A stretch of DNA of 64,000 nucleotides from Trypanosoma brucei (lineage: Eukaryota). Both the position numbers and the translations under genes were made by a program. The stretch spans positions 576,001-640,000 of the forward strand of contig CP000066.1 of the NCBI GenBank assembly GCA_000002445.1. The letters run 5' to 3'. The notes below the pieces were generated by a model. That model worked only from the letters and a program-made list of their open reading frames with translations, had not been told where the DNA came from and ran no database searches. Below are positions 47,857 to 64,000 of this stretch, piece by piece. Within the stretch, counting starts at the first letter, position 1; the number at the start of each line of letters is the position of its first letter.

Positions 47857-48054
47857 ATGCCTGAGACGCCACAGCGAAATGGATTCAAGCGTCCAAGTCT
47901 TGCAGCTAAATTATTCGGTGATGCGGATGTCGTTTATTCGAGAGAAACAACATCTCGACTAACGGATTTTGCGGGAACATTTTTAGTCGGATTTTTCGCG
48001 GTTTACTTCACAATTGCGGGATATTTACTTTATCGTGAGGCAGCGCTCTCGTAA
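47857..48054 (+). CDS. Very small tail-anchored protein (65 aa), speculative
   Basis: ATG ORF on the PTU strand. It is the only non-low-complexity ORF in a 2.3-kb spacer. Its C-terminal TM segment TDFAGTFLVGFFAVYFTIAGYLLYREA resembles that of the 46435 ORF. Confidence 0.35.
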   Translation: MPETPQRNGFKRPSLAAKLFGDADVVYSRETTSRLTDFAGTFLVGFFAVYFTIAGYLLYREAALS

Positions 48055-49054
48055 AAAATAAAAAATAATATAATAATAATAAATAAATAAATAAATAAAG
48101 GAGAAGAAGAGAAAAATAAAATAAAATAAAACGTGTCATGGCGATGTTGTTGGATATTATTATTATTACTATTTATTCCAACAATGAAGATGCACCCATA
48201 ACGATCAGTTGAAGGGAAGGAAAGTGTGAAAAATCAATCATTACACTACCTATTTAGACATAGGTTTGGAGGGGAGAGATCTTTTTTTAAAAAAAACAAA
48301 AAAAAAATCTCCCCGGGTCCCTTTTGTGTTCTTCCTTTTATACGTGCGGTGTGTTGCGCTGAGAACTCACTGAGAAGTGCGTGACTGCGTATTTAAAAAT
48401 AAAAATAAAAAAAACACCGTCACCTTCCCTCGGTATTTAGTTAATCATTATATTGCCATACCTGTTTTTATTTTATTTTATTTACTTACTCACTTTGATC
48501 ACAATGTAAGTTCTCGGGCCGGTGCCGTTTTTTTTTTGCAATTTTTGGTGTTATGATCTTCCATTCGTCCCTCTTTTTTATCTCCTTTTTTTTTCCTTTT
48601 TTTTTCCACTGCTTTCTCCGCCTACACACTTTTAAAAATGAAATAAAAATTGTGCAGCATTTTCGCGCAGAAAGTCAATGTGCTCCCTTTATAAAAGCTA
48701 AGAGAATGGGGGAGTGTTGCGTACGCTCATGCGTTTTTGTGAGGGTTAATGAGTTTTCATCCTTTCAAAACAAAAACACAAAAGGGAGAAAATAACAGGG
48801 ACAAAGGGGGGGAAAAAAGTAGCAATGTTTTGTTTATTGATAATCCGCTAATTTATCTTAACTGCGTTACGGAATATATGATATATATTTGTGTGTGTAC
48901 GCGTGCATGTGAAATATCCAACACTCATTGCGTCATTTTGAAATTTATACCTTCTTTCTTTTTTGTTTTCCTTAAAATAATTCCGCTCCGCTTGGTTATT
49001 GCTCTGAAAGCTCAAGCGGCGCAGCGGGGGGGCGACTTTCCGTTGTTGTTGCTG

Positions 49055-49072
49055 TTATTATTATTATTATTA
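49055..49072. repeat. (TTA)6 microsatellite
   Basis: Read directly, preceded by (GTT)3. Confidence 0.9.
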
Positions 49073-49139
49073 TTGCTATTGTTGTGTGTTGTTCTTTTTT
49101 TTTAAAAATAAATAAATAAATAAAAGGAAACAGCATTGT

Positions 49140-49898
49140 ATGCTCCGGTGTATACAATGTAATGCGGCGGTCTACCGAATTGTTCAGCCGGAAAACGAGG
49201 TGGTTGAGAAGTGTGGGACATGCGGTAGGCGGTGTGATAGGTATTATGAATTCTCTAACTGTCAAAAGTGGATAAGCATCACGTTGCTTGAGAAACCTGC
49301 ATGGATTCATGTGTTATTTAACAAAAAAGATATCCGCGCGACATTATTTTGCACAGCCCTCCTGTCACGACTTATTGAAGCGTACGTCGTGCGAACGAGT
49401 TTGGTGTATGGCGCCTTACGCATGCTTCGGTCTAAGGGACCGGTTTCTAACGTAAGTTCGGTTGCGACACTTCAGCTTTTCCGGAATGTGAATCCCAAAA
49501 TAGAACCGCTGATGGCGTATCAGGACACTTTGCCCAATATATTTATTTGTGCTTGTGGAGAATATTTGCTTTGCCTTTTGGTCACTGTTATATTTGCGCT
49601 TCATTCGTGGCGTCGTGGTGGCTCGGCTTTATGGGATGTTGTACTCACATGGATGACATGTGTTAATCTTGCCTATTCAGCGAAGTTGTGTTTCGTAGTG
49701 TTCCTTATTTGGCGCATTCCCATCGCATTAGTATCCCTGGTGGATCTTATCAGTCTCCTTTGGGCTGCTCGCGGTTTCAGTCTTGTGGAAAATAGATATC
49801 CACCATTATTTACATCTGTTGTTGTGCTGATTTGTACGGCAGCCACACGATATCTCTTCCGTAGTGTTACGCAGTGGAGTCCACAACTTCTGGTGTGA
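49140..49898 (+). CDS. ARV1: ARV1-like lipid/sterol homeostasis protein
   Basis: 252 aa. The N-terminal Arv1 homology domain has a zinc ribbon, CIQCNAAVYRIVQPENEVVEKCGTCGRRCDRYYEFSNCQKWISITLLEKPAWIHVLFN (cf. consensus C..C...............C..C....D.Y.E........D..L.K..AY.H.LFN). Several TM segments follow. Confidence 0.78.
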   Translation: MLRCIQCNAAVYRIVQPENEVVEKCGTCGRRCDRYYEFSNCQKWISITLLEKPAWIHVLFNKKDIRATLFCTALLSRLIEAYVVRTSLVYGALRMLRSKGPVSNVSSVATLQLFRNVNPKIEPLMAYQDTLPNIFICACGEYLLCLLVTVIFALHSWRRGGSALWDVVLTWMTCVNLAYSAKLCFVVFLIWRIPIALVSLVDLISLLWAARGFSLVENRYPPLFTSVVVLICTAATRYLFRSVTQWSPQLLV

Positions 49899-50647
49899 TC
49901 GAAATGAATGTGAATGTCTCTTTTTCCCATTGTTCTCGCCCTTTTGTAATCATATTTATATATTTTTTCTTGTTTTTTTTTGTATTCTTCCGTCCTCGGT
50001 CCGGTCGGTTACCACTGTAAATGTAACCTACAACTTTCCTTTCCTTTCCTTTCTGCTTTGGTTTGGTTTGGTTTGGCTTGGTTGCACCGAAAGCACTTTT
50101 CTACTTCTCCATCGCCGCAATAATTGTTTTTTGTGGTGTTTCCCGTTCATTCGGTATCAGCATCAGATGGGAACTTTGTCGCTGCTTCTTTTCTTTGTTG
50201 TGTACCTTCCTCTTCTCCACTATTAATTGCGGTGCCCTCTGATTTATTTGCTTCGTCGTGTATATGCTGATGTATGTATATATATATATATAGAAATATA
50301 TAAATATACATGTGTGTATATGTATATATTGGCCCTTTTTGTTTCAATTTATTTCTTCGTCGTCTTTTCATGTTTCGTTATTGTGCAAGTAGAAACACCC
50401 ACAGGTGTCTGACACTTAGGCATAACAGTGTAAAAAGGTGGGGATTAGTTACGGGTGGAAGAAGAGGAGGAAGTTGAGGAAAAGATAGCAACGAAACAAA
50501 AGCTAAAGCTAAAGCAAAAAAAAAAAAGAAGAGAAAACGATAGAAGGGAGAGTAAAAAAACGGAAAAAAAACGGGAAAAAGTTAAGAGAACAATCATAGG
50601 GCAATAAAATAAGGCCAGATTTTCGCACAGGTGATAAACAGGAAACA

Positions 50648-53539
50648 ATGGATGCGAAACTTGTGTTCTGTGCGCACTCGCTCAAGTTACCAACGCTGAG
50701 CATTCCCCCAGCTCTGTCAGTAGATAATGAAACCATCAACTTCAGATGTCCGGAACCTCTTGCAGAAGCTGGTTTCCCCGTTCCAAACGCATCATTTACT
50801 GCTGACGTGATGATGGAGCAACCGCAATCCCGCTCCATTTACCAGCGGGTGTTCGCAACAGCTGCACGGGATTTCGAAGGGCGTAAAAATCTGGTAGTTT
50901 TCAGCTACGGCGTGCGTTCCACACCGAAACGGCAGCTTATGTTTGGTTCGGAATCGGGTAGCGGTTATGCTGCGAAGATCATTGGCGATGTTGTGGATGT
51001 TGGTGCCACCAAAGGCATCTTCGCCATCTCTGCGTATGGTGTTGGTTCCTCAGAGCATCTCACCGACTTCACTGATGAGAATAACGAAATGGGAGTAATT
51101 GTAGAATCGGTGAAGGAGGGCCCGCGTGTGCGTATGGTTGGGCGTGTTCGTGTAACGTCATCGGAGGATGTGCGTTCCGTTTTTAACACAGTTACGAAGA
51201 ACTATCAAAAACATTTCGAGTCAGTACTCCGCGAGAGGCAACCAACAGCTGAGCTTGAAGCCCTTCCGCCATATATGCCTGAGTCAATGATTCTTCAGCT
51301 CTACCGTTATGATGATGAGGAAGCATTCAGCGAGTATGTGGAAGCGAACTCCATGACGTTTGTTGCACTGGGAGACTCGGAACGGCCTGTTCTTTGTGGA
51401 ATTGAAGAAGAAACTCAGCAGGAGTATGAAAAGACACAGAAAGTCCTTGCGTCAGCAGTAGGAATTATCTCCAGTATTCGCTGTAATCGTCTGCGCATTC
51501 CATTCGGCAAGTCGAAATTAAGTCAGCTCCTTCGCCGTGCATACAATGCCGAGAAGGGCAACCCCAACAACGGCTACAATGAGCCAACATCAACCGTTTT
51601 TATTATTCATGCCTTTACAGACGCTGTTTGGGCAGAGGAGTCATACCACTGCCTTTTACTCTCGCGACGAGTTAGCAGCGTTGTTGGCACGAGCAGCATC
51701 GGTTCCATTACGCGCGACCTCAGTGTCGATAAGTGGCGTTTGGATCAAGATATTATGGAGTTGCGTGATGAGCTTCAAATTGCGCGCACAGTGTATGACT
51801 ACAGGCCCTGTATATATGACCAACCGAAGCCAGTTCAGAATATCAGAGAGGAGGAACAGAAACGCATTAGCGCCATTGTTTCAAAACGGGAGGAAGCCCG
51901 TGAAAGGCAGCTGAGTTTGGTCCGCGAGCAAGCCAAGCAGGATGCTGATAAAATCATTAAGGATCTCGAAGCTCGGACGGGGACGACGCTCTCGGCGCTG
52001 GAGGCCTCCCTCGAGGCGAAAATGAAGGAAAACTCGGCGCTTCATGCGGACAGGGAAAAACGAATTCATGAATATGAGCAAACCTTAGAAAAGATTCGCA
52101 AAAAGAAGCAGGAGGAGGAATCCGCGTGCGAGAAGCTACGTGAAGAGATGCTCCAGCTTGAACAGGAACTTAGTGTTCGGCAAAACGCAATTGAGAGCAA
52201 GCAGAAGAATTTGGAAATGATAAAGCTGGATAAGTCAAAGGGCCGTGACGCGGTTATGCGTGAGCGACAGTCCATACAAGCGATGCGCAAAACGGTGCTA
52301 GAGGAGAGGCGGCGTCAGCGCAAACAGTGGATTAACCAAATAAAAGAAATCAACGCTAAGGTTATTGATCAGGTCCGGATGCTGGCCGAGGAACGGAAGA
52401 AAAACGGTGAGCAGCCCACAGCAAATGAAGAGGCTGCTGAAAAGGCAATCATCGCGGATGTGCGAACTATCGAGGAATACTTGCCAAAACTCATTTCACT
52501 TGAGGACGTTCCCGTGAATTTGGAGGAGACGGAAGCCATTCGCCGACAATTTGCGGATGTGTTTGCGGAAGAGAAAAAGACATATCTTGCGCGGATCGAA
52601 GAGGAGAAGGCGCGGAGAGAAAAGCTGGAGCGTGGCCTCGAAGTATATCGTCAGCGCCTACTCGACACATATCAAGCTAAGAAAAAGGAGAAGGTGCATG
52701 ACGCCATAACAAAAGAGCAACACCTCAGCTCATTGGTGGATCAAGTCATTACGTACTTGCGCAACGGTGTCCGAATGAGCAAAATTTCAAGCAAAGGAAA
52801 TATTCGCCGGCGGTTCTACTTCCTCTCCGAAGATTACAAACGCATTCACTCCTGTGAGATTGATAACCAAGGCGCGCCAATCAGCCGGAAGAAACCACCC
52901 GTCACCATATGGCTGAAAGATATAAAGAAAGTGGTTATTGGCGTATACACATCTTCATTTACAAACTTTAGCAGTGAGGCTCAGTTGGCGAAGACGCGTC
53001 AGGAGGCCGTTTCTGACAGCGGAACTTACCGTCAAGACCCAACGCAAAACATCACCTCAGCCAACCTTGGTTTGCATAATTACAGATCCTTTGCACTTCT
53101 GCTTCGTGGAGGTAAATCTCTGGAAGTTGTTTGCGAAACGGACAGCGACTGCGAGGCTTGGCTTGTTGCGCTCAAGCGACTCCTTCAAATAAAATCTCCT
53201 ATTGAGCGAATTCTTGAGGAAAGGATGAACGGCAATACGACGAAAGAATCACCAAGTAACACACATGAAGGTGCTGTTGATATAAAATGGGGTGGTTCAC
53301 TTGATATACACAACATGCGCGGGTTTGTTTCCCTGTCGTCTGAAGAAGCCACGCTGTGTAGTGAAAACCACATCCCGCCCGCTTTGTTCCTTCGGATGAA
53401 GCAAGAAATGGCAGAAAAGGCGGAAAGGAATACCATCACGATTTATGATGTCCGTGTTTCTTCCGGTCTTGACTTATTCCGCTCAGGGAAGCTTTATGAT
53501 TTCTTATGCGAAAAGAGAGTCATACCGCTCCCGTACTGA
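50648..53539 (+). CDS. Kinesin-like protein with degenerate motor motifs, long coiled coil and C-terminal PH domain
   Basis: 963 aa with a kinesin-fold N-terminus. FTADVMMEQPQSRSIYQRVF...NLVVFSYGVRSTPKRQLMFG sits where F.FD.VF...Q..VY...N..IFAYGQTGSGKT.TM.G is expected. MTFVALGDSERP corresponds to LVDLAGSER, and IPFGKSKLSQLLRRAY to IPYRDSKLT.LLQDSL. Residues ~400-700 are an E/K/R/Q-rich coiled coil. The PH-like region is KGNIRRRFYFLSEDYKRIHSCE...LEVVCETDSDCEAWLVALKRLLQ. Confidence 0.78.
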   Translation: MDAKLVFCAHSLKLPTLSIPPALSVDNETINFRCPEPLAEAGFPVPNASFTADVMMEQPQSRSIYQRVFATAARDFEGRKNLVVFSYGVRSTPKRQLMFGSESGSGYAAKIIGDVVDVGATKGIFAISAYGVGSSEHLTDFTDENNEMGVIVESVKEGPRVRMVGRVRVTSSEDVRSVFNTVTKNYQKHFESVLRERQPTAELEALPPYMPESMILQLYRYDDEEAFSEYVEANSMTFVALGDSERPVLCGIEEETQQEYEKTQKVLASAVGIISSIRCNRLRIPFGKSKLSQLLRRAYNAEKGNPNNGYNEPTSTVFIIHAFTDAVWAEESYHCLLLSRRVSSVVGTSSIGSITRDLSVDKWRLDQDIMELRDELQIARTVYDYRPCIYDQPKPVQNIREEEQKRISAIVSKREEARERQLSLVREQAKQDADKIIKDLEARTGTTLSALEASLEAKMKENSALHADREKRIHEYEQTLEKIRKKKQEEESACEKLREEMLQLEQELSVRQNAIESKQKNLEMIKLDKSKGRDAVMRERQSIQAMRKTVLEERRRQRKQWINQIKEINAKVIDQVRMLAEERKKNGEQPTANEEAAEKAIIADVRTIEEYLPKLISLEDVPVNLEETEAIRRQFADVFAEEKKTYLARIEEEKARREKLERGLEVYRQRLLDTYQAKKKEKVHDAITKEQHLSSLVDQVITYLRNGVRMSKISSKGNIRRRFYFLSEDYKRIHSCEIDNQGAPISRKKPPVTIWLKDIKKVVIGVYTSSFTNFSSEAQLAKTRQEAVSDSGTYRQDPTQNITSANLGLHNYRSFALLLRGGKSLEVVCETDSDCEAWLVALKRLLQIKSPIERILEERMNGNTTKESPSNTHEGAVDIKWGGSLDIHNMRGFVSLSSEEATLCSENHIPPALFLRMKQEMAEKAERNTITIYDVRVSSGLDLFRSGKLYDFLCEKRVIPLPY

Positions 53540-55197
53540 GCGGTGAAGGAAATATGAGAGTGTTATCAGGAGCCAACAGAATTTGTTTCTGAACTTTACC
53601 TTCCCTTCCTCTTTATTATTTCCCCTTATTTCAGTGATGATTCTGCTGCCGTCGCATTGTCCCACCCGCTACGTTCAATTATTTAGTAAATAGTTGGGAA
53701 GGGTGTCCACGTTTTTTTTTCAAGTTCTTTTTTTTTTTTTGGAACTTCCGGTCATATCCGAAATGGGCAGGGAGGTAGAAAGAGGAGGAAAGAGCAATAT
53801 AAACTTGGTTCCAGTCTGCGTTGCGTGAAATCCCCACGTTTCGAAACTGAAATAATATGTTCGAATGTTATGCTTAATAGTAACAATCACAATAATAATA
53901 ATAATACGTCTCACATCATCTTTCTTTCTTTCTTTATATTTAAATTTTTATTTGACAAAGAAAAAAGGATTATGGGTTTATAGTTAGGAAAAAATGACTA
54001 TATTTCCCCAATAACTGAGTTAAGGCGCATACCGCAGCAACATGCGAAACCCAAGTTTCAGTACCACTCAAATATACATTCATTAGTTAAAAATTTTTTT
54101 GCTTGCGGAATGAAGCTCGTTAGCTCACGCAAAAGGTGATGAAGTGGAACCGGCAATTTTTACAAAAAAAAAGCGTTATTGCTTTAATGACACAAGGGTG
54201 GGTATTCTTCGTAAAAACATAACGGCGTGATATGGGGTCAAATATGCGGACAGCCGCATATTTTAATTTTCGCACATGAAAAAAGCTCACCCGCAGCCAC
54301 ATCTCACTAGGGAAAGTTAGGAAGGGTAAAGTGCTCCCGCAAACGATGTGACGGAAGGATCAGAAATGATGCATTTGAAGATGGGGGCTGCCGGATTTTA
54401 TTATTTTGGGCCGGGGGAATACTCTTGCAAATGTGTGGAACGGGGGAAAAGGCAACACGAGGGGAGGGTTTTTTTTTAAAAAAAAGTGTCCGGGGAACAG
54501 GAATTTAATACGCTGTGCGGAGCATGGTGAAATTGGCAGAGGATGGTTTCATGGGAAGGACAGAGGTAGAATTCGGGCAAAACTGCTTGGAAGAAACTAA
54601 GCGAGGGTGCAATTTGTTAGAAATATCTAAATAAAGCGAACGTGGCGGATTGGGGGAAAGGGCGAGAGGAAACGCAAGAAACGCGAGCGCTTCTGTCAAA
54701 TACGGAAATACAGGAAATTGGAAGCAGGGCCAAGTTATCCGGTCAGATGCATAAAGACGCAACTCCCTCGTAATAATCCTCTGGAGAATACCATTAGGAA
54801 GTTTTATTTTAAAAAAAAAAAACTTTCGAAGTTCAACGCAAGATTCTTCGGAAGTACCGCAAAACTAAAACCGTGCCTACACTCGCTCCAGTCGACAAGA
54901 CGCTTTTAGCTAGTTTCTCAGTTGAGGTTGCACCTTTTGCTCCCAAGCATACTTGTTGTTTTGCTTTATCTGAAGAGATATAAAAAAAATACCACGCATC
55001 CGCAAAATGCGTCTGAACCAAACCGATCTTTTATGTATCGTATCAACTAGCCGATGAGGTGCGTGAGGAAACTTCCTTCATAGAATTGCTAAAACAACAG
55101 GTGTGTGGGGAGGAAGAAAGTGTTGTATAACAGTTTTGCATCGTTAAGACTCCGTGGGCACGTACCTGAACCAAACGTTAGGATTTAAGGGGTGTGC
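53540..55197. terminator. Convergent strand-switch region (candidate RNA pol II transcription termination zone)
   Basis: The plus-strand array ends at 53539 and the minus-strand array ends at 55198. There is no credible CDS or tRNA between them. In trypanosomes such regions are the known termination sites, marked by base J, H3.V and H4.V. Confidence 0.75.
54153..54386 (+). repeat. Inverted-repeat arm A (about 234 bp)
   Basis: It is the reverse complement of 63159-63390. Hand alignment gives about 13 substitutions and 4 indel positions, e.g. the shared blocks ttattgctttaatg, cacaagggtgggtattcttcgtaaaaacataacggcgtgatatggggtcaaatatgcgga and ccacatctcactagggaaagttaggaagggtaaagtgctcccgcaaac. Confidence 0.9.
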
Positions 55198-56385
55198 TTA
55201 AAAAACTAGAAAAAATAACTTAAGTGGTTCTGGGAGGCGGTTTACACCGCTGGAGGTGAATAATCTTCGTATGGAAGTCACGCATTCGCTCCCATTCCAT
55301 TCGCACCGCGGCTTCTGTTCCAGGCAAGTTACCTTGCTTTCGAAACCAGAGCATCCTCTTTTAGAGGACGTAGTCGGTTTTTTCCCCTCCAGTCCATTAT
55401 CAGTATTATTGGATTCGTCCTTTTCTTTTTCGCTTGAATTGTTTGGGACAGGTCGTGCCCCCCTCTTCAATTCGTTTACTTGGTTTTGAATCTTCACGAG
55501 GTACTCCTCGGCTTGGATCAGTTCTTCCATTCTGGTTGCAGCTTCTCGCAACTTTAGATACCACGAAATTGTTGGCGTGCTTTCATTGACGTGTCTTGGG
55601 AGATATATTACGCATCGGCCATGGCCAACCTCGGTGCTTCCGTCGCAGCCGTTGTGTAAGTCGGCGCCGCGCGCGCCCAGTAAGTTTCGTGAATCCGATG
55701 AAGAGTCCGGTATTTCCTGGAGTTCGCCAAGGAAGAAAGCGACCGCCTCTGAGAGCGCTTGAAGCGGCCGAGTTTTCTCTCTCCTCACGTTGCTGCACTT
55801 GGGATGGAGCAAATTCCAGTGATCAGGAGAATTTCTCTGGGGTACCCATGATCCTACATAAGTGGTGTTGCATCCATCACAGCAAACCGCGCTGCCGCCT
55901 TTGCCTTCGCTGGATGCTGCACAGATGCACAGTAAATCAAGCGCCAGCGCATCACCCGCTTTATTTCCGGGCTGGCCGCCAGCTCTTCCACATAACTCCG
56001 ACCTCCCACCCCGCGTGCGCCCGACCACCACCTGTTTATGACCGTTGCCGTACAGCGCTTCTGTTAAATTTTTTCTGATAGCTGATAAGGCCCGGCCGTT
56101 CCATAAATCACCGTTCTCTTCCTTATATGTTTTCGCTTTTAGTTTAAGTTCCTCAAGTTTTTTAACATTTTCTTCGGGCGCTTCGGCCTCTCCCTGAATT
56201 TCGTCTTCTGTTTCCTTAACCTTGCGCTCCAGATCCTCCGGTGTTTGTGTATCCAGCGCAAGATTTACAAAACCACACAGCGCTTCGAATTCCTTTCCAT
56301 TCACAATGTTGTTTTCATGCGCCTTTGAATTGACGCAGATATGTTGCAGCGTTACCACCGCAACAAACACGATGTAACTCCTCAT
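55198..56385 (-). CDS. VSG-related (b-type N-domain-like) surface protein with signal peptide and hydrophobic C-terminal tail
   Basis: The ORF-track start at 56553 is TTG. The likely start is the ATG at 56385, giving the signal peptide MRSYIVFVAVVTLQHICVNS (395 aa). Motifs are KEFEALCGFVNL and GDALALDLLCICAASS, with many Cys residues. The C-terminus SSGVNRLPEPLKLFFLVF is GPI-signal-like. Confidence 0.78.
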   Translation of the reverse strand: MRSYIVFVAVVTLQHICVNSKAHENNIVNGKEFEALCGFVNLALDTQTPEDLERKVKETEDEIQGEAEAPEENVKKLEELKLKAKTYKEENGDLWNGRALSAIRKNLTEALYGNGHKQVVVGRTRGGRSELCGRAGGQPGNKAGDALALDLLCICAASSEGKGGSAVCCDGCNTTYVGSWVPQRNSPDHWNLLHPKCSNVRREKTRPLQALSEAVAFFLGELQEIPDSSSDSRNLLGARGADLHNGCDGSTEVGHGRCVIYLPRHVNESTPTISWYLKLREAATRMEELIQAEEYLVKIQNQVNELKRGARPVPNNSSEKEKDESNNTDNGLEGKKPTTSSKRGCSGFESKVTCLEQKPRCEWNGSECVTSIRRLFTSSGVNRLPEPLKLFFLVF

Positions 56386-56831
56386 CCCCAACAATTTCGT
56401 ATATGCCTTTTTGTTCACAATGATGTCACCTGTCTCCCCAGAAAATTCGAAAGATGACGTACCAAACTTAGCGAAAAATACACACATACCGCGTAGGTGA
56501 GGATCATGACGAATAAAAAGCTCTCTCGGCTTCTCTCCCCAGCACACACACAAAAAATTGTTACATAACGTTTCAGCTCCCTTGAGAAGTCATAGCATCA
56601 CAAGAGAGCTCCACATGGAAGCCACCGCTGCTATCTCGATAGCAGCATCAAAAAGCCAGACACAAATTCCAAAAAAAGAAGGTGATACCACCTTAATTAT
56701 TCATCCAAAGAAAAACGAATTCATATGCGATTGTTAATAAACCCACATATTGTTAAAATGAAACACACGTACACATAAAAGCAAAATATAAAAAAGATAC
56801 TGCACGACAATGTTGGTAGCGTACCAGTAAA

Positions 56832-58202
56832 CTAAGACATACAAAAAAGGGATAGAATCATTAATGTAAAAATATCAGTTGTTATATCTATATAGTTGAA
56901 TCCATTATTATTTACTTCAGCATTGCCACCTTCACCATCATCCTGACCTCGGTTACTTCGCCATAGCTCAGCATCACCACCTAGCTTCACCTCAAGAAAT
57001 ATTTCCTCTGCCTCATGTTGGTATTCTTCCAATTCGTGAAGATGACTGTCAGACTCTTTGGCATACTTTGCCATTTCTTGTAGTTGCTCGGTGGCGTTAG
57101 TAAGATGGTTGTACCAAGGGATCCCACCATTTTCAAGTGTGTAGTTGTAGCTGACACATGTGAATCCAGCAGTATGACCCGTGCAGGTGCGATTCTCGTT
57201 GTTTAATGTTTTCACATAACCAAGAATACCCTTCACCTGATACTTATCCTGTTCCATTTCCACTAACGCATCGAACTGAGCTAGCGCACTCTTTAAGGTT
57301 TTCACATTAGATGCAATATTCTTGTACACGCAAGCTTTACTAATCACATCCCATGCCTCAGTATGGTTGTATTTTATATTTTCAGGCTTGCAGGTATTAT
57401 AGTTGCTCGGACAATACTCAGCCATCATAGTCCAACTACCATTTTTAGGTCTCCTTATTGCATCCTTACAAGGACAGTCATATCCACTGTATATGTTTTC
57501 ACTACTTGAGCCAGTATCCATTTGGTATACGCGTGTCTGTCGCTCTTCCTTCTTTTTTTCTATAGCCTCTCCCACACATAGGCAAAAGAAGTCATTAATT
57601 AGTGTCTTTCCAACTAGCTTGTCTCCGTAAGAACCACAGCTTGCGTCCGCATTGTAGACACTATTGAACAACAGTGATTTGTTTCCCCTCATGGCTTCCT
57701 CCAGAGTTTTATTCTCATTTCTTGCCACATCCACAGCGTCGCCATACACAGCCCTCAGCATATTTTCTTCAGCAGAGCGACTTGCATTCAAGGCTTTTGT
57801 CCTATTCACCTCTATCTGCTCCTTAAGCTTTTTCGCCTTCTCAAATAGTTTCTTCATCTCCTGATATGCTGTCGTGCTGTTAGATGAATTGTTCGAGCCC
57901 TTATTGCCACCAGCAGCTTCTGCCTCACTGACCATTTCCTCCAAATTCTTCAGAATCTCTCCTTCCTTCTCACGATTCTTAAAGGAGGGTTGCGGGGCCT
58001 CTGCTTGCGTGATTCGGTAAATCTTGCACAGTGTTTCGAACTCACCAACGTTGTGATGTTTTTCATCTGCATCGACGGTCTCCATAATCCTATCCCAGTC
58101 AAGCATATCAGTTCTCCATCGATATTCTGCCATATCACCCTGAGAGGAAGGAGATAAAACAACCACAAGCATCCCAACGGCAAACACTGTTTCGTGTCTC
58201 AT
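56832..58202 (-). CDS. VSG-related (b-type N-domain-like) surface protein with signal peptide and hydrophobic C-terminal tail
   Basis: The ORF-track start at 58289 is TTG. The likely start is the ATG at 58202, giving MRHETVFAVGMLVVVLSPSSQG (456 aa). Motifs are GEFETLCKIYRI and GKTLINDFFCLCVGEA. The C-terminus DITTDIFTLMILSLFCMS is GPI-signal-like. Confidence 0.78.
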   Translation of the reverse strand: MRHETVFAVGMLVVVLSPSSQGDMAEYRWRTDMLDWDRIMETVDADEKHHNVGEFETLCKIYRITQAEAPQPSFKNREKEGEILKNLEEMVSEAEAAGGNKGSNNSSNSTTAYQEMKKLFEKAKKLKEQIEVNRTKALNASRSAEENMLRAVYGDAVDVARNENKTLEEAMRGNKSLLFNSVYNADASCGSYGDKLVGKTLINDFFCLCVGEAIEKKKEERQTRVYQMDTGSSSENIYSGYDCPCKDAIRRPKNGSWTMMAEYCPSNYNTCKPENIKYNHTEAWDVISKACVYKNIASNVKTLKSALAQFDALVEMEQDKYQVKGILGYVKTLNNENRTCTGHTAGFTCVSYNYTLENGGIPWYNHLTNATEQLQEMAKYAKESDSHLHELEEYQHEAEEIFLEVKLGGDAELWRSNRGQDDGEGGNAEVNNNGFNYIDITTDIFTLMILSLFCMS

Positions 58203-58440
58203 CGTGATTTTGCCTCTACAATCATCAGTCAAAAGGAGGGAAAAAAATCTTATTATCACGTTCATTACTGTTATTGACAAACACAACAAACATGGAGATA
58301 CATCAATGTATCGAAGTTAACAAGTGCCCGACACAAGTCAACCGAAACAGTATCCAACAAAACAGGAAGCACATCCCAATACATACAGTTAGATGAGTGT
58401 ATTCTTTCAAGCTGGACATCAACGTTAGACTTCCTCACAA

Positions 58441-58660
58441 CTGCGGTATTCTCCTTTTCGTTACACCATTTCTCCTAATTTCCTCCCCAAAAAATCTGCT
58501 TTATTTGATACCATGCCAGTATATCCAATTTTCCAACTGAGTTCCTCTTGCACTCCCTTGATTTCCTCAATAATAAGCTGATCCATTCTCTTAATGAAGA
58601 CTTGCACCTTTATGCCATGTTTTTTTCCACATCCTTCATTGGATCTGTTAGTTTAAGTTG
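58441..58660 (-). pseudogene. Possible relic of the 3' part of a VSG-related gene
   Basis: Own minus-strand translation gives TDPMKDVEKNMA*, then in another frame KVQVFIKRMDQLIIEEIKGVQEELSWKIGYTGMVSNKADFLGRKLGEMV*. The RMDQLIIEEIKGVQEEL stretch resembles RMEELIQAEEYLVKIQNQVNEL of the 55198 gene. It is short, frame-broken and weakly similar. Confidence 0.25.
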
Positions 58661-59418
58661 CCATTTTATGGTCTTATTTGCTAATAGATTACGTGCTTAA
58701 TTCGCACGTGTTACCTTTATCCAATGCACACAACTCTGCTGCTGAACTCCACTCAGCATATCCTCCTCCACTCATACGCATACTCACAAAACTTTTTGTT
58801 TACCTATTCTTGACCATGCACAGTTTCCTGCCTTCCATTTTCTTAAGCCATACACTAGAAAAGATAAAAGTTGTATTTTCAAAACACCATCTCGGATACT
58901 TATGCTCACTATTGAGGCCCTTGATTATATGGTGACATGATGGAATATTATGGTATTTTCCAACACAAAAAAGTCCCAGAATAATTAGTGACCTTCCCTG
59001 TCAGCACCCTCATTTAGATCGTTCACCTCATTAACCAGCCACCATCCTTATAGATACGCTGGTAGAAAAAAACGGAAGTTATGCACGTTATCGCCCATCC
59101 CCTCAACGAATTCTATCCACCCTTACCCCACACAGGTTTTTTGCATAAGAAACGACAAACAAGAAACAAAACTACTCTTGTGAGCACAAAACCAAATATT
59201 TCTTCCTTACTTCACATGCAGAAAGAATTAACACACCCCACTACCCTACAACACAAATGGTGGAGGGACAGCCATAGTCACTACCACTCACAATTAAGAT
59301 AACCCAGACAGGGAAACTCCAGATAAAGAAATGCCCAGTTACGAGAAAGATCCTAGCGCGCACACGTAAAGATATTTCATTTATTATGGAACAGGGAGAA
59401 TATTAATGAAAGTACTTT

Positions 59419-60393
59419 TCAGATGGTAAAATTAGTACTCTTCATATTATCAATGTTATTCGTGCTGAACTGCAGCGAAGTGAAATTCCTATGGATATCG
59501 TTGAAGTAGCTCTGCAGTAAAGTGATATTGGCCATCATATCCAGGAGTTCAGGAGGTGCTTTGCCAGAAGTAAAAGGTTCGATAAGAGGGTCAAATATCT
59601 CCTCCACGTAAATTTGGAGCTGAAAAAAAGCGGGGCCGTTCTCACGCCAGTTTATTAAGCCAGTTGAATTCTTCACCGCACCACCCTTATATAAGTTGTC
59701 ACGCGGTAAGTTCAAGCATTTGCTCACAGATCCAGATCCAGTTAAAACATCAATTTGAAGGCAACCTCCCCTGTATTTTTGGAGAGTGATCTCGTTCACA
59801 CCGGTTAATAAAGGACATGTCTGATCAACACATACGACTGGGAACCCCCTGACACCTTTCAGCGCTCCTTTCTTGCACTCGGGTCCTTCATCATTGCTCA
59901 CGGCTTTAACGTCATCCCACACAGTTCTTGCGATCTCAGCAATAGCTGTGTAATATTTATTTGATGTTATGAGGGCACCAGGTATTGCATTCCTCACTGC
60001 CCTCACGCTTTCATTAACCTCAGCAAATAATCCACCTGCCTTAGCAACAAGATCTCCCATTGCATTTCCATAAGATATAAGGTTTTCCAATTTATCATTT
60101 TCCTCTACCATTACACTGCTAATAACACTCAAATATATAACACTTTCGCCTGTTTTCCCTTCCATGTCATCCAGCATACGAGACGCATTTGCGTATACCT
60201 CCTCATTCAAAAAAAGCTTCCTCTCGCCATCTGTATATAGTTTGTTTAAGGCATCTGAAAGACATTTGAGGTAACATACGGATTGGTTTAAGTTTGTGCC
60301 CTTGTCATCATCTATTGATGTGCAATAACTTTCTTCTGCCACTCCAAAGGTCACAAAAAAAAAAACAACCAATCCTACAATCTTAATTTTCAT
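59419..60393 (-). CDS. Secreted/surface-family protein, divergent from its three neighbours, no C-terminal hydrophobic tail
   Basis: Within the 421-aa ORF the likely start is the ATG at 60393, giving the signal peptide MKIKIVGLVVFFFVTFGVAEES (324 aa). The helical N-terminal half is CYLKCLSDALNKLYTDGERKLF...AMGDLVAKAGGLFAEVNESVRAVRNAIPGAL and the middle is Cys-containing. It ends polar (NNIDNMKSTNFTI). It lacks the LC.C motif of the neighbouring genes. Confidence 0.62.
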   Translation of the reverse strand: MKIKIVGLVVFFFVTFGVAEESYCTSIDDDKGTNLNQSVCYLKCLSDALNKLYTDGERKLFLNEEVYANASRMLDDMEGKTGESVIYLSVISSVMVEENDKLENLISYGNAMGDLVAKAGGLFAEVNESVRAVRNAIPGALITSNKYYTAIAEIARTVWDDVKAVSNDEGPECKKGALKGVRGFPVVCVDQTCPLLTGVNEITLQKYRGGCLQIDVLTGSGSVSKCLNLPRDNLYKGGAVKNSTGLINWRENGPAFFQLQIYVEEIFDPLIEPFTSGKAPPELLDMMANITLLQSYFNDIHRNFTSLQFSTNNIDNMKSTNFTI

Positions 60394-61732
60394 TACTAAA
60401 CAATTACATTTGACAAGAGGAATGAAAAAAACACATACACATCGCCACACAAAACCAATGAGTGTCACAAATGTATAATCCCAATACCCACAGTGTTTCA
60501 TACACATAACATTGAACCACATAATAAATATTGCTACAAGAGACGTTAAACCCAACAGAATATGATGCTCCTTCTTCATTGTCAATCCTCCTTCATCCGT
60601 CACATCGTCATCATCCTCACTTCCATTGCATTTCCTCCCACTCTCCTTGAAATATTTACACACAATCAGGTTTTGAGATAGCAACTCTTTCAGTTTATTT
60701 TCATGCCCAGTAAAGGAAACAAAGATCAGCTCTACATCACCGTACCGTTTGGTGATACTCCCATATCATTTTGTGACTAAATTGTAGCTGTTGATAAGCT
60801 AGGGCACTATATCACTGAACATTAGGGTGACAACACCATCCCTATGGTAGTTAACGAAACCTCCGGTAGTTCCCACTATGAAAGTTCCAACTCCTGCAAC
60901 CGCAGCACCTTACGTACCCATGATCCAGCAATTGATGGTTGCTATCGGTTGTAAATTCAATTGGTTGATTAGCTGTGTAATTATTTGTGCAACCAATATA
61001 CCATCATTTGGCATATCTTCAGTGAAAGAGAAATTACACATGTTAGGAGATTCCGCTACTCTGTGCTTATGTTAATTACTTTAACATTCATTTCCTGAAG
61101 AGGCGGCTTTCTCCTTCACAAGACAACAACCATTTGCTTTAGCATTTGTTTGTCTAAAAACCATTACCAGATCCTTCAACACTTGTCCAATTGACAATGA
61201 TGCATTCACAACATGATTAGACACTCTTATTTCGTTTAAATAACTTGCGTCTATTACCTGTCCAGGTTCATCTGTATTCTTCATTATATTCCTCAACCTC
61301 TACGTTATCGCTTTCCATGCCCTTCCCTTTACATCATAGTGATATCACCACATCAGAAACCCATTCAACATTTACATAGCCTCCGATTGTCATCTTCAAA
61401 ACACTAACACTCACAGTCCCCAAGGCACAACTGAAGCTAAATACCGTTTGTGTCCCTTGACGGACACCTCAACTCAGTGCCAGGGTCTAGCACCCTGCTC
61501 AGGTAAGAGAAAAAAAGCGACAGCATCCTACTCCATTAGGATTAAGTTCAGACGGAAAATCCAAGGCTTCAATTCACAATGGAGCACACACCGTAAACGT
61601 TACAGGACAAGCATTATTCTTGGAAATAAAATAGGCACAGTTGCTGTGCCGTCAACTATACCAAAAAGAAATCCACTATTATTACCATTAGTGTTAGTAT
61701 TGGCGCAGTGGAGCCACATATGATGTTGTGTG

Positions 61733-62845
61733 TCACAGCAGAAAGAGCAAAAACACCACCAACGGTGAAATAGCCTGAGCGACATTTTTCGGCCGAAGTG
61801 GCTGGTGTGAGGGTTGGAGTGAGTGATTGGTTCTTGTTTCACCAAGAGGAACCAAGTCAGGGTCGGTGGTGCTTTGTGTAGCTGCACTTGTGTTGGGTGC
61901 CATTGGTGTATTGCCATCAGTTGCCGTTGAGGGAGATTGCTTGGGACGTTGCTCGGGAGATGGATCCTCCTCTGGTTGTACCTTTATTTCCGGGGGTGAC
62001 TGACGGGGTGGTGAGCCTCTTGTTGGAATAGGCGGTTCCCTCTGCTCCTGCGGTGGCATTTTGTTGACTTTTTGTGCATTTTCCTTTTTAGGGGTTTTCA
62101 ACCTTTTGACAAGGTCTTCTAGTTGTGTCAACCACTCAATTTTGACTTGATTTGCTCCTCCGCCTTCCATTTTATAGAAAACACATGGGGCGTTATTTGC
62201 ACTGCCAGACCCTCCACAAGATTTGGTGATCGGCTCCCGCCCGTGTCCGAAGCGCTTAGTTTCCCTCTCTGTTGTTTTCTCGGTCATTTCATTCAGTTTT
62301 TTCCTAAGATTTTGGACGGTTGTGGTTAATGATTCAAAACCGATGCTTTCTATATTAATTTGCTCGGTGCACTTTTGCTTGATTTTCCCCCAACTTTCTT
62401 CGGCTCTGTCCTTGTTTCCCCAACTTTCGGCAGGATCATACCACGCATTGGCTTCGTAGCACAGATTTTTTTGGTGGTCACCGTTTCCGCTGGGTCTGCA
62501 AAGACACAGAAGGTCCAGCGCTAACGCTTTGCCTCCAAATCCGCCTCCGAATATGCTGGTGTAGCCACAGTCAGCTTCTCGTTTTTCTTTTCCAGTCCAA
62601 TTAAGGGAGCCATCGCTGTCACTACCGTACAAGACTTTCATCGCGGAACTGTCGAAGTCGTTTGCGACCTCGGCTGTGAGTCTCTCTTTCTCCACCCACT
62701 CGTGTATTCTCAGTGTCAAATTTAAGAAACTGCAGAGCACGTCAAACTCCCTTTGGTTCAACGTATTTTCTATCTCTGCGGCCGGCACGCTCAACCCTGC
62801 CGCCTTCCAAACCACGCACAGCATAGTCACTAATATTTTCCACAT
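61733..62845 (-). CDS. VSG-related (b-type N-domain-like) surface protein with Pro/Ser/Thr-rich stalk and hydrophobic C-terminal tail
   Basis: The likely start is the ATG at 62845 (MWKILVTMLCVVWKAAGLSV) or at 62860. Motifs are REFDVLCSFLNL and GKALALDLLCLCRPSG. About 90 residues are P/S/T/Q-rich (PPQEQREPPIPTRGSPPRQSPPEIKVQPEEDPSPEQRPKQSPSTATDG...). The C-terminus AISPLVVFLLFLL is GPI-signal-like. Confidence 0.75.
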   Translation of the reverse strand: MWKILVTMLCVVWKAAGLSVPAAEIENTLNQREFDVLCSFLNLTLRIHEWVEKERLTAEVANDFDSSAMKVLYGSDSDGSLNWTGKEKREADCGYTSIFGGGFGGKALALDLLCLCRPSGNGDHQKNLCYEANAWYDPAESWGNKDRAEESWGKIKQKCTEQINIESIGFESLTTTVQNLRKKLNEMTEKTTERETKRFGHGREPITKSCGGSGSANNAPCVFYKMEGGGANQVKIEWLTQLEDLVKRLKTPKKENAQKVNKMPPQEQREPPIPTRGSPPRQSPPEIKVQPEEDPSPEQRPKQSPSTATDGNTPMAPNTSAATQSTTDPDLVPLGETRTNHSLQPSHQPLRPKNVAQAISPLVVFLLFLL

Positions 62846-63158
62846 CGCCTTCCTAAGCATCAATAAAAAAAATGAAACAGATAGTAGAGAAATCTCCAAT
62901 GAGAGGGGCAGGGACACTTTTAAAGGGTGAAAGTTTAACCCTATTAGGTATTTCATGAAACATCAGCAGAGGTCAACCAGAGAAGATATGAAAGCTCATA
63001 TCTCCATAGACTACATTTATTTTTTTAAAAGTCTCTTTACCATCCCAAGACTAGTTTGGCACTTAAGTTTACTTCTGGTTTTGATACTTGCTGCCATTGT
63101 CTTAACCTATCTGCCTTAAAGTTTTGATAACATCAAGGGTTTCCGCTCTTTTTTGGGG

Positions 63159-63390
63159 GCCTCCATCTTCAAATGCATCATTTCTGATCCTTCCGTCACA
63201 TTGTTTGCGGGAGCACTTTACCCTTCCTAACTTTCCCTAGTGAGATGTGGCTGCAGGAGAGCTTTTTCATATGTGGAAATAAAACCACGCGGCTATCCGC
63301 ATATTTGACCCCATATCACGCCGTTATGTTTTTACGAAGAATACCCACCCTTGTGCCATTAAAGCAATAACGTTTTTTTTGTAAAAATGC
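63159..63390 (-). repeat. Inverted-repeat arm B (about 232 bp)
   Basis: It is the reverse complement of 54153-54386 (see arm A) and lies about 200-300 nt upstream of the 61733-62845/62956 gene. Confidence 0.9.
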
Positions 63391-64000
63391 GATTAATTAT
63401 TAACATGACTATTGAAAACGCTATTGTGATGTTGAACATGGTTTACCGTTTCAATTCAATTATTTCACCACAACAATAGCCAAATAATACACGATCTACC
63501 AAACAAACGCAACAGAAAGGCATTCACCAACTTCAGAAAAAAAATTTATTCAAACGGTTTTCAAACAGTACATATCCTACCATTCCCACCCAAAACACCT
63601 CAGAAACTGTTGATTTTCAAGGTAAATCACAAATCGAAACATAAGCAGCAAACTACCCCACCCATACAAATACACGAGAATAAATGTGGTATAACAATAC
63701 CAGATAAGCTCGGTGACCGTATCCTACACCAAAATAGGTATTAATAACAATGTGAGGCTTGGGCACAAAATATGAAGGGCCATTGATTCCGCCTTTTTTC
63801 TTAGGGCAGAGGAGTTCTGTTCCCTTTCATTGGTGATGAGGCTATTATTATCACCCCAAAACCAGTTTTTTTTATCACTGCCTCTCCATGTGGATATTTT
63901 CCTTGTCTGGCGACCCGGCACTCACTTTTTTCTGCTTTTCTTAGGTGATGTTAATTGATTGCCTTACAGCCTATACCATTTATCTATTCACGAACGTTAC

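What the first reader, a model, noticed from the sequence alone, without database searches (positions are those of the whole stretch)
54153..63390. A ~232-bp inverted repeat brackets exactly the four-gene surface-protein cluster
Seen in the sequence: plus-strand 54153-54386 is the reverse complement of 63159-63390. My hand alignment gives about 13 substitutions and 4 indel positions over ~234 columns (roughly 93% identity). Differences are concentrated in a central patch (about 54256-54292). Homology stops abruptly at the outer ends (54153 / 63390) and within a few nt of the inner ends. The arms face each other across 8.8 kb that holds the four surface-family genes and nothing else. Established knowledge: T. 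brucei has an active RNAi pathway, and inverted repeats and convergent transcription zones are among its known endogenous siRNA-producing locus classes. Inference, three options: (a) both arms lie on the same minus-strand primary transcript and could form a ~230-bp dsRNA stem that feeds RNAi and dampens the cluster. (b) The arms are footprints of the event that inserted or duplicated the cluster into a housekeeping core. (c) They are recombination substrates that could invert the cluster relative to the termination zone.
Basis: partly seen in the sequence, partly recalled or inferred. Interest (0 to 1): 0.75.

Follow-up and report, generated by a model that had tools for sequence, protein, structure and literature searches.

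The report
Inverted repeat flanking surface-gene cassette
A real, conserved ~235-bp inverted duplication flanks four Trypanosoma brucei-specific surface-protein genes at the silenced tail of a transcription unit; it looks most like a rearrangement scar whose two copies still exchange sequence, not a demonstrated RNAi trigger.

Summary
Window 54157-54392 is the reverse complement of 63155-63388 (93% identity, BLAST E 1e-96). It is the only non-low-complexity repeat in the 64 kb. It encloses three VSG_B genes and one ESAG1-like gene, and nothing else. The window is T. b. brucei TREU927 chromosome 3, genes Tb927.3.25xx.

Both arms sit in the same place and orientation in T. b. gambiense DAL972 and T. 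equiperdum IVM-t1. The arms are no better conserved than neighbouring intergenic DNA. Their differences cluster in a 35-nt central patch, and elsewhere the arms share strain-specific states, which indicates gene conversion between them. There is no target-site duplication, no transposase, no extended homology, no ncRNA and no third copy in about 150 kb examined.

Published work places the cassette in "cSSR 3.3". There, base J and histone H3.V stop Pol II upstream of Tb427.03.2590, beyond the right arm, so the silencing already has an explanation. The published siRNA inverted-repeat list has no chromosome 3 entry, and the local convergent unit gave only 227 reads.

Best reading: a scar of an old inversion or inverted duplication, now a neutral substrate for recombination. 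The hairpin-RNAi idea is not excluded but lacks support. Genome-wide copy number could not be tested.

The parts
54157..54392 (.). Left arm of the inverted repeat. It lies in the middle of the convergent strand-switch region, ~615 bp past the stop of the plus-strand PH-domain gene and ~805 bp past the stop of the last minus-strand gene.
   Evidence: nhmmer 54157-54392, E 1.8e-86
63155..63388 (.). Right arm of the inverted repeat. It lies ~200 bp upstream (in the minus-strand sense) of the annotated ATG of Tb927.3.2540 and ~860 bp downstream of the Tb927.3.2550 tandem array.
54258..54292 (.). Central diverged patch of the left arm (partner 63255-63288). It holds 7 differences fixed between all left and all right arms, plus one indel. 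Identity here is 71-74%, against ~97% in the two flanking thirds.
63316..63329 (.). Minimal gene-conversion tract in the TREU927 right arm. Four sites (alignment columns 80, 81, 84, 93) carry the TREU927 left-arm states, whereas the DAL972 and IVM-t1 right arms differ. The tract is bounded by 63295 and 63356.
53540..55197 (.). Convergent strand-switch region between the plus-strand transcription unit (last gene 50648-53539) and the minus-strand unit. By inference it corresponds to 'cSSR 3.3' / CTU6 in the literature.
55198..56487 (-). VSG-related gene 1 (VSG_B domain, 429-aa ATG model). It is the last gene of the minus-strand unit.
   Evidence: (Pfam 7e-45)
56832..58265 (-). VSG-related gene 2 (VSG_B domain). 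Its N-terminal half is hypervariable between subspecies.
   Evidence: (2e-24)
59419..60579 (-). ESAG1-like gene (Tb927.3.2530 by position). It is intact here, truncated in DAL972 and IVM-t1, and annotated as a pseudogene in Lister 427.
   Evidence: (2e-114)
61733..62956 (-). VSG-related gene Tb927.3.2540, 100% identical to XP_843847.1. It is derepressed 12-24-fold on loss of H3.V with or without loss of J.
50648..53539 (+). PH-domain gene (XP_843843.1). It is the last gene that is syntenic with T. vivax and T. theileri, so the conserved core ends here.
62968..63158 (.). 190-bp segment abutting the inner edge of the right arm. It is ~20% diverged between TREU927 and DAL972/IVM-t1, while both neighbouring stretches are 98-99% identical.

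Best explanation
The two arms are an old, low-copy inverted duplication of one ~235-bp non-coding segment. It was most likely created by the rearrangement that set the four-gene VSG-related/ESAG1 cassette in its present orientation at the end of a minus-strand polycistronic unit. That rearrangement could have been an inversion through staggered breaks, which duplicates the breakpoint sequence in inverted orientation at both ends, or an inverted segmental duplication.

Since then the arms have drifted like neutral intergenic DNA. Occasional short-tract gene conversion between them keeps the outer and inner thirds ~97% alike, while a 35-nt central heterology persists.

The repeat is not what silences the cassette. 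Silencing comes from base J/H3.V-dependent Pol II termination that begins upstream of Tb927.3.2590, several kb beyond the right arm. When Pol II does read through, the two arms could pair in the primary transcript and add a few DCL2-dependent siRNAs to those of the convergent zone. This would be a by-product, not a dedicated function.

Shown here: the repeat, its conservation, the lack of sequence constraint, and the mosaic site pattern that points to conversion. Taken from the literature: the position inside the J/H3.V-silenced tail. Inferred: the origin by inversion or duplication, and neutrality.
For: - The repeat is real and unique within 64 kb.
- The arms are present in the same position and orientation in DAL972 and IVM-t1. 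The left arm is also present in T. equiperdum OVI.
- Orthologous arms are closer to each other (96.1% and 97.8%) than left is to right (90.5-91.8%). The duplication therefore predates the split of the subspecies.
- TREU927-DAL972 divergence is 3.0% in the arms and 2.0% in flanking intergenic DNA (Fisher P = 0.22), so there is no sign of purifying selection.
- The mosaic site pattern indicates gene conversion. The TREU927 right arm carries four TREU927-left-type states within 14 nt, and OVI and IVM-t1 show reciprocal exchanges.
- There is no target-site duplication, no extended homology and no coding remnant next to the arms.
- There is no tRNA or Rfam hit, and single arms are not unusually structured.
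- The four genes are 21-26% identical or unalignable. The 92%-identical arms are therefore not leftovers of the gene duplications themselves.
- Synteny with T. vivax and T. theileri ends exactly after the PH-domain gene. The cassette lies in a lineage-specific zone where rearrangements accumulate.
- VR genes and ESAG1 are T. brucei-specific (PMC3605285).
- The silencing is explained independently. Tb427.03.2500.2530.2540.2580 and .2590 are derepressed by loss of H3.V/J at 'cSSR 3.3' (PMC4721609; PMC4150806).
Against: - The origin cannot be reconstructed. No outgroup carries the cassette, so no un-inverted or single-copy state was seen.
- Genome-wide copy number of the unit could not be measured. 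Only about 150 kb of T. brucei-clade and outgroup DNA was searched.
- The sharp 20%-diverged patch abutting the right arm hints at an unseen paralogous donor, that is, possibly a third copy elsewhere.
- Concordant changes in both arms are also what selection for RNA pairing would produce.
- No small-RNA reads were mapped to the arms here.
Confidence: 0.55

Rival explanations
1. Long-range RNA hairpin. Both arms are transcribed on one minus-strand precursor and pair into a ~230-bp imperfect dsRNA. The nuclear Dicer DCL2 processes it, and the siRNAs dampen the cassette mRNAs or the PH-gene 3' region, or reinforce the silent chromatin.
For: - Both arms lie in one transcription unit and are complementary in the minus-strand transcript.
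- The duplex ddG is -292 kcal/mol against -20 for shuffled controls, with perfect runs of 60, 52 and 39 bp.
- T. brucei makes siRNAs from inverted repeats and from all convergent units (PMC3447711).
- CTU6 reads are 99% DCL2-dependent.
- Concordant substitutions in both arms (columns 81 and 93) would preserve pairing.
Against: - The seven published siRNA inverted repeats are 422 bp to 10 kb long and at least 99% identical, and none is on chromosome 3.
- CTU6 gave 227 reads, 9th lowest of 48, against a median of 1349. Its 7.7-kb interval cannot contain both arms.
- No other chromosome 3 small-RNA region is listed.
- The bloodstream-form small-RNA table has no row for this strand-switch region.
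- Pol II normally stops upstream of Tb427.03.2590, so the precursor is rare.
- Four trans-splicing/polyadenylation units lie between the arms.
- Tb427.03.2540 mRNA rises 12-24-fold on read-through in RNAi-competent cells.
- Loss of DCL2 did not change mRNA levels at the two convergent units tested.
- The central 35 nt stay mismatched in every strain, and the arms are not conserved above background.
Confidence: 0.15
2. Recombination switch. Homologous recombination between the arms occasionally inverts the 8.8-kb cassette. This would move the four genes from the silenced tail of the minus-strand unit to the end of the plus-strand unit and so change their expression.
For: - The arms interact by recombination, as the gene-conversion tracts show.
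- The geometry fits: inverted arms exactly flank the cassette beside a strand-switch region.
- Tb927.3.2540 is developmentally regulated, with a stumpy-associated profile and a 3.3-fold difference between cultured bloodstream and procyclic forms.
Against: - The orientation is the same in TREU927, DAL972 and IVM-t1.
- No recombinase gene and no site-specific motif is present; the cassette holds only VSG_B and ESAG1 ORFs.
- With 232 bp at 93% identity and a central heterology, the arms are a poor crossover substrate.
- An inverted cassette would still lie against a J/H3.V-marked termination zone.
Confidence: 0.08
3. Dispersed repeat. The 235-bp unit belongs to a multi-copy family, for example a module upstream of VR-type genes or a degenerate retroelement fragment, and two copies happen to flank the cassette.
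For: - The sharply bounded 20%-diverged 190-bp patch next to the right arm looks like conversion from a paralogous donor that shares the arm.
- Genome-wide copy number was not measurable with these tools.
Against: - A profile search finds only the two arms in the 64-kb window, in ~9 kb further upstream in DAL972, and in the other fetched loci.
- There is no similarity to the neighbouring tandem array.
- There is no poly(A) tail, target-site duplication or reverse-transcriptase/transposase remnant.
Confidence: 0.12
4. Mobile cassette. The arms are terminal inverted repeats of a 9.2-kb DNA-transposon-like element that carried the four surface genes into the strand-switch region.
For: The arms are inverted, end sharply and enclose a lineage-specific gene set in a synteny-break zone.
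Against: - There is no target-site duplication at the outer edges (GGCAA|TTTTTAC... versus ...GTAAAAA|TGCGA).
- There is no transposase.
- No second copy of the element is known.
- To my knowledge no DNA transposons are known in T. brucei.
- The lineage-specific region extends beyond the right arm.
Confidence: 0.03

Closest known systems
Long inverted repeats IR1-IR7 of T. brucei (Tschudi et al. 2012, BMC Genomics 13:427)
   Same: Both are chromosome-internal pairs of inverted arms separated by a few kb in the same genome, with the potential to fold back into dsRNA in an RNAi-competent organism.
   Different: The published repeats are 422 bp to 10 kb long and at least 99% identical, and all were shown to yield AGO1-bound siRNAs. 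This one is ~235 bp and 92-93% identical with a mismatched centre. It is absent from that list and has no demonstrated siRNAs.
PTU-internal termination domain at cSSR 3.3 marked by base J and H3.V (Reynolds et al. 2014, 2016)
   Same: By inference it is the same locus. Tb427.03.2500/2530/2540 lie between the arms and are silent in wild type and derepressed on loss of H3.V/J.
   Different: The published domain starts upstream of Tb427.03.2580/2590, beyond the right arm, so the arms do not delimit it. The papers read here do not mention this inverted repeat at the locus.
Inverted duplications at inversion breakpoints (staggered-break model described for Drosophila inversions; recalled from memory, Ranz et al. 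2007)
   Same: A short, originally single-copy sequence is present in inverted orientation at exactly the two ends of a segment. There are no target-site duplications and no mobile-element features.
   Different: No un-inverted outgroup is available to show the ancestral single copy. To my knowledge the mechanism has not been documented in trypanosomes.
Convergent-transcription-unit siRNA loci (CTUs) of T. brucei
   Same: The left arm lies inside a convergent strand-switch region that is, by inference, CTU6, which yields DCL2-dependent small RNAs.
   Different: CTU siRNAs arise from overlapping transcription of both strands and need no inverted repeat. The right arm lies outside the convergent zone.

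Membership tests
T. brucei siRNA-producing long inverted repeats (Tschudi 2012) | Two arms in inverted orientation on one chromosome, a few kb apart | tested here: met
   Arms 54157-54392 and 63155-63388, 8.8 kb apart
T. brucei siRNA-producing long inverted repeats (Tschudi 2012) | Arms at least ~420 bp long and essentially identical (99-100%) | tested here: not met
   ~235 bp at 92-93% identity, with a central 35 nt at only 71-74%, against Table 3 of PMC3447711
T. brucei siRNA-producing long inverted repeats (Tschudi 2012) | AGO1-bound 22-25-nt small RNAs map to the arms or spacer | not testable with these tools
   No read data are available here. The published tables list no chromosome 3 inverted repeat or miscellaneous locus, and CTU6 has 227 reads
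Base J/H3.V PTU-internal termination domain | Genes at the 3' end of a polycistronic unit, next to a convergent strand-switch region | tested here: met
   Four minus-strand genes converge on the plus-strand unit. Upstream genes are on the same strand in DAL972
Base J/H3.V PTU-internal termination domain | Low expression in wild type, derepressed on loss of H3.V and/or J | tested here: met
   This rests on the literature, not on a computation made here. Tb427.03.2540 goes from 0.34 to 4.1/8.3 RPKM.2530 from 0.8 to 2.2/2.6, and .2500 from 1.6 to 2.6/3.9. .2580 and .2590 also rise
Base J/H3.V PTU-internal termination domain | Position of the J/H3.V peaks relative to the arms | not testable with these tools
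   ChIP/IP tracks are not available. The gene list implies that the termination site lies upstream of .2590, beyond the right arm
DNA transposon with terminal inverted repeats | Target-site duplication flanking the terminal repeats | tested here: not met
   The outer flanks ...AACCGGCAA| and |TGCGATTAAT... share nothing
DNA transposon with terminal inverted repeats | Transposase gene, or other copies of the element | tested here: not met
   Only VSG_B and ESAG1 domains lie between the arms. No further copy was found in the DNA searched. The whole genome was not searchable
Invertible DNA switch | Both orientations found among genomes or populations | tested here: not met
   Same orientation in TREU927, DAL972 and IVM-t1. 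This covers only three assemblies
Inversion-breakpoint inverted duplication (staggered breaks) | Inverted copies exactly at the two ends of the segment, with no mobile-element hallmarks | tested here: met
Inversion-breakpoint inverted duplication (staggered breaks) | Single copy of the unit and opposite orientation in an outgroup | not testable with these tools
   VR genes and ESAG1 are T. brucei-specific. The T. vivax and T. theileri loci lack the cassette and the unit
Structured non-coding RNA gene (duplicated) | Match to a known RNA family, or unusually stable fold of a single arm | tested here: not met
   No Rfam or tRNA hit. Fold z-scores are -1.9, 0.0, -2.0 and +0.6

The most novel reading that the evidence does not exclude
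The repeat is a fail-safe. When J/H3.V-dependent termination upstream fails, or is developmentally relaxed, read-through Pol II transcribes both arms. The precursor then folds into a long-range hairpin that loops out the whole cassette. DCL2-made siRNAs from the arms act in the nucleus to keep the cassette, or its chromatin, repressed. This would be an RNAi layer coupled to transcription termination at a surface-antigen-family locus.
Probability: 0.08. Interest if true: 0.7.

Novelty: new member of a known kind. Interest (0 to 1): 0.3.

Why it matters
The repeat flanks a cassette of VSG-related and ESAG1-like genes at one of the model loci (cSSR 3.3) used to study base J/H3.V-controlled transcription termination in T. 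brucei. No paper in the searchable library mentions an inverted repeat together with VSG-related genes.

If it were functional, it would link RNAi or DNA inversion to the control of surface-protein genes. As it stands, it matters in three smaller ways:
- It is a dated structural marker of how lineage-specific surface-gene islands are built next to strand-switch regions.
- It is direct sequence evidence that short inverted repeats about 9 kb apart in the chromosome core exchange sequence by gene conversion.
- It is a caveat for read mapping and for knock-in design at this locus.

Tried and rejected
- **TREU927 look-ups failed.** Exact-protein look-ups for the TREU927 gene models found nothing, so TREU927 is not in the contig index. 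Sequence beyond window position 64000 had to be read from DAL972 instead.
- **Tb927.3.2500 could not be placed.** I tried to find which annotated small ORF is Tb927.3.2500 and whether it overlaps the left arm. Ten ATG-ORFs were looked up and none is in the collection.
- **Few homologues with contigs.** Homologue searches with two VR proteins returned only 2 hits each, most without contigs. Other VR loci could therefore not be scanned for the unit.
- **tRNA, Rfam and single-arm folding gave nothing**.
- **No decayed gene next to the left arm.** tblastn found nothing.
- **No extended arm homology.** Word-7 BLASTN found nothing.
- **Transposon reading rejected.** There is no target-site duplication and no transposase.
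- **Leftover flank of a VR gene duplication rejected.** The genes are 21-26% identical, whereas the arms are 92% identical.
- **No mention of this repeat in the searchable literature**.


Full report
**1.

The repeat finder on 52-64 kb, and on the whole window, returns two adjoining inverted blocks. They are 54159-54283 / 63263-63387 (125 nt, 90%) and 54280-54388 / 63159-63267 (109 nt, 96%). BLASTN joins them into one 233-nt match at 93.1%, E = 1.5e-96. A profile built from the arms places them at 54157-54392 and 63155-63387.

All other repeats in the 64 kb are low-complexity AT, GT or A-rich tracts. The alignment with flanks shows that homology ends within a few bases at all four edges. A word-7 BLASTN of the flanks finds nothing more.

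In TREU927 the outer 92 columns have 3 differences, the central 35 columns (54258-54292) have 9 substitutions and one indel, and the inner 97 columns have 3. The binomial P for this clustering is 9e-5.

**2. What lies between and around the arms**

The window carries minus-strand ORFs at 1.3-9.4 kb, plus-strand ORFs from 11.7 to 53.5 kb, and minus-strand ORFs from 55.2 to 63.0 kb. So 53540-55197 is a convergent strand-switch region, and the left arm lies in its middle.

The four ORFs between the arms are, from left to right:

| ORF (window coordinates) | Pfam domain | E-value |
|---|---|---|
| 55198-56553 | VSG_B | 7e-45 |
| 56832-58289 | VSG_B | 2e-24 |
| 59419-60684 | ESAG1 | 2e-114 |
| 61733-62956 | VSG_B | 3e-27 |

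Their proteins are only 21-26% identical to each other, or unalignable. They are not a recent tandem duplication. No tRNA and no Rfam family is present.

**3. Identity of the locus**

The 61733-62956 product is 100% identical to XP_843847.1, a VSG-related protein of T. b. brucei TREU927 on a 1,653,225-bp record, chromosome 3. The PH-domain protein at 50648-53539 is XP_843843.1.

In the DAL972 locus (L001) the gene is preceded by a tandem array with a 1519-bp period encoding 219-aa products. This matches the "Tb927.3.2550" array reported in the T. b. gambiense genome paper. Tb927.3.2540 is listed as VSG-related. So the cassette is Tb927.3.2510-2540. This assignment is an inference from adjacency and gene order.

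**4. Conservation of the repeat**

- T. b. gambiense DAL972 chromosome 3 is collinear with window 51766-64000 and has both arms.
- T. b. equiperdum IVM-t1 is collinear over 47130-63527 and has both arms in the same orientation.
- T. equiperdum OVI has the left arm, but its contig ends inside the cassette.

Orthologous arms are 96.1% (left) and 97.8% (right) identical between TREU927 and DAL972. Left-versus-right identity is 90.5-91.8% in every combination. The duplication therefore predates these lineages.

TREU927-DAL972 divergence is 3.0% in the arms and 2.0% in the adjoining intergenic DNA (Fisher P = 0.22). The arms are not under detectable sequence constraint.

**5. The arms exchange sequence**

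In the seven-sequence alignment, seven substitutions and one indel are fixed between all left and all right arms, and all lie in the central patch. Outside the patch the pattern is mosaic:

- The TREU927 right arm carries the TREU927 left-arm states at columns 80, 81, 84 and 93 (63329-63316). The DAL972 and IVM-t1 right arms differ there.
- The OVI left arm has right-arm states at columns 123, 124 and 208.
- The IVM-t1 right arm has the left-arm state at column 208.
- The IVM-t1 left arm has the right-arm state at column 36.

Two coincident lineage-specific changes alone would be expected with P of about 0.017. Four linked ones within 14 nt are best read as a short gene-conversion tract, bounded by 63295 and 63356.

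Selection for RNA pairing would also give concordant changes. But the central patch stays mismatched in every strain, which argues against strong selection for a perfect stem. The IVM-t1 single-base indels may be assembly errors, so I did not rely on them.

**6. What the unit is not**

- The outer flanks share no direct repeat, so there is no target-site duplication.
- No transposase or reverse-transcriptase domain lies between the arms.
- No VR- or ESAG1-like coding remnant adjoins the left arm.
- Single arms fold no better than shuffled controls (z = -1.9, 0.0, -2.0, +0.6).
- The unit is absent from the tandem array and from the rest of the DAL972 flank.
- The unit is absent from the T. vivax and T. 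theileri loci.

**7. Synteny**

In T. vivax the Arv1 and PH-domain genes and two genes further upstream match the window. The five genes after the PH gene have no counterpart in the window or in L001. In T. theileri the PH gene is followed by a glycosyl-hydrolase-32 gene.

The conserved core thus ends at the PH gene, and each species has its own content after it. VR genes and ESAG1 are T. brucei-specific according to Jackson et al. 2013. VR genes typically sit at chromosome-internal strand-switch regions (Jensen et al. 2009).

The T. brucei-specific region does not stop at the right arm. It runs on through the 219-aa tandem array.

**8. What is already known about this locus**

Reynolds et al. 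2016 show chromosome 3, 617-670 kb, "cSSR 3.3", as a model of PTU-internal termination. There base J and H3.V mark a site inside the unit, and the downstream genes are silent. Expression values from their tables (RPKM):

| Gene | Wild type | H3.V knockout | H3.V knockout + DMOG |
|---|---|---|---|
| Tb427.03.2590 | 10.2 | 20.1 | 45.6 |
| Tb427.03.2580 | 0.73 | 5.5 | 14.6 |
| Tb427.03.2540 | 0.34 | 4.1 | 8.3 |
| Tb427.03.2530 (ESAG pseudogene) | 0.80 | 2.2 | 2.6 |
| Tb427.03.2500 | 1.6 | 2.6 | 3.9 |

Reynolds et al. 2014 validated the rise of Tb427.03.2590 after J loss. Silencing therefore starts upstream of .2590/.2580, that is, beyond the right arm. The repeat is not the boundary of the silent domain.

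That this is the same locus is an inference. It rests on the gene identifiers, on their being the only multi-gene chromosome 3 cluster in the table between .1490 and .5890, and on the coordinates.

**9. RNAi evidence in the literature**

- Tschudi et al. 2012 surveyed the genome for inverted repeats. They listed seven (422 bp to 10 kb, at least 99% identical), all siRNA sources, and none on chromosome 3.
- Of their three chromosome 3 convergent units, CTU6 (626,600-634,300) falls within 617-670 kb. It gave 227 AGO1-bound reads in wild type and 11 in dcl2-/-. That is the 9th lowest of 48 units, against a median of 1349.
- CTU6 spans 7.7 kb and so cannot contain both arms, which are 9.2 kb apart edge to edge.
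- Their list of other small-RNA regions has no chromosome 3 entry.
- The bloodstream-form small-RNA table of Reynolds 2016 has 72 rows and none for this region.
- Loss of DCL2 did not change mRNA levels at the two convergent units tested.
- Tb427.03.2540 mRNA accumulates 12-24-fold when read-through occurs in RNAi-competent cells.

The hairpin is thermodynamically easy to form. The ddG is -292 kcal/mol against -20 for shuffled controls, with perfect runs of 60, 52 and 39 bp. That follows trivially from 93% complementarity. Four mRNA-processing units lie between the arms.

**10. Interpretation**

The most economical account is that one ~235-bp intergenic segment was duplicated in inverted orientation by the event that placed or flipped the cassette. 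That event was either an inversion by staggered breaks or an inverted segmental duplication. It happened well before the T. brucei subspecies diverged but long after the VR genes themselves diverged. The copies then evolved neutrally, with occasional conversion.

I give this 0.55. The rivals are:

| Reading | Confidence |
|---|---|
| Functional hairpin-siRNA source | 0.15 |
| Member of an unseen dispersed family | 0.12 |
| Inversion switch | 0.08 |
| Transposon-like cassette | 0.03 |

The main gap is genome-wide copy number, which none of the tools could measure. The 20%-diverged 190-bp patch that ends exactly at the right arm's inner edge is unexplained. It is the best hint that another copy may exist.

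**11. Verdict**

The feature is real and accurately described. It is not mentioned in the papers I could search and is conserved across the T. brucei clade. But it is ordinary in kind. The known chromatin-based termination explains the behaviour of the cassette, and the published small-RNA data give the RNAi idea little room. Novelty: new member of a known kind. Interest: 0.3.

Noticed in passing
window 62968-63158: This 190-bp segment lies between the Tb927.3.2540 start and the inner edge of the right arm. It is ~20% diverged between TREU927 and DAL972/IVM-t1, with sharp edges, while both neighbouring stretches are 98-99% identical. It suggests conversion from an unseen paralogous donor, or two old haplotypes.
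   Followed up: partly
window 57000-59200: The N-terminal half of VSG-related gene 56832-58289 and the intergenic DNA upstream of it are only 70-90% identical between TREU927 and DAL972. The rest of the cassette is 97-99% identical. The T. equiperdum OVI contig also ends here.
   Followed up: partly
window 62954-62956: The ATG that starts the 407-aa TREU927 model (XP_843847.1) is not conserved: the plus strand reads TTTCATGAA in TREU927 and TTTTATGAA in DAL972 and IVM-t1. The DAL972 model is 375 aa, so the real start is probably Met33 or Met38.
   Followed up: partly
window 59419-60684; L001 12467-13324; L004 18782-19759: The ESAG1-like ORF is full length in TREU927 (the Pfam ESAG1 match covers the whole profile). 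It is only 285 aa in DAL972 and 325 aa in IVM-t1, and it is annotated as an ESAG pseudogene in Lister 427. The gene appears to be decaying in several lineages.
   Followed up: partly
window 54238-54261 (partner 63285-63308): The left arm holds a perfect 10-bp stem with a 4-nt loop (AAATATGCGG-ACAG-CCGCATATTT). The right arm reads CCGCGTGGTTT instead. Three of the fixed left/right differences are exactly those that perfect the palindrome, as expected from a quasipalindrome-templated mutation.
   Followed up: no
L001 2876-8608 (just right of the window end): A tandem array of four units with a 1519-bp period encodes 219-aa products with no Pfam match (Tb927.3.2550 family). It ends ~860 bp from the right arm and belongs to the same silenced tail of the transcription unit.
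   Followed up: partly
L002 (T. vivax) 14467-21123; L003 (T. theileri) 14569-16470: Directly after the conserved PH-domain gene each species carries different lineage-specific genes: five unmatched ORFs in T. vivax and a glycosyl-hydrolase-32 gene in T. theileri. This position is a recurrent synteny break.
   Followed up: partly
window 3382-4061 and 4931-5836: Pairs of long ORFs overlap almost completely on opposite strands (222/220 aa and 301/280 aa). One ORF of each pair is probably a shadow of the real gene.
   Followed up: no
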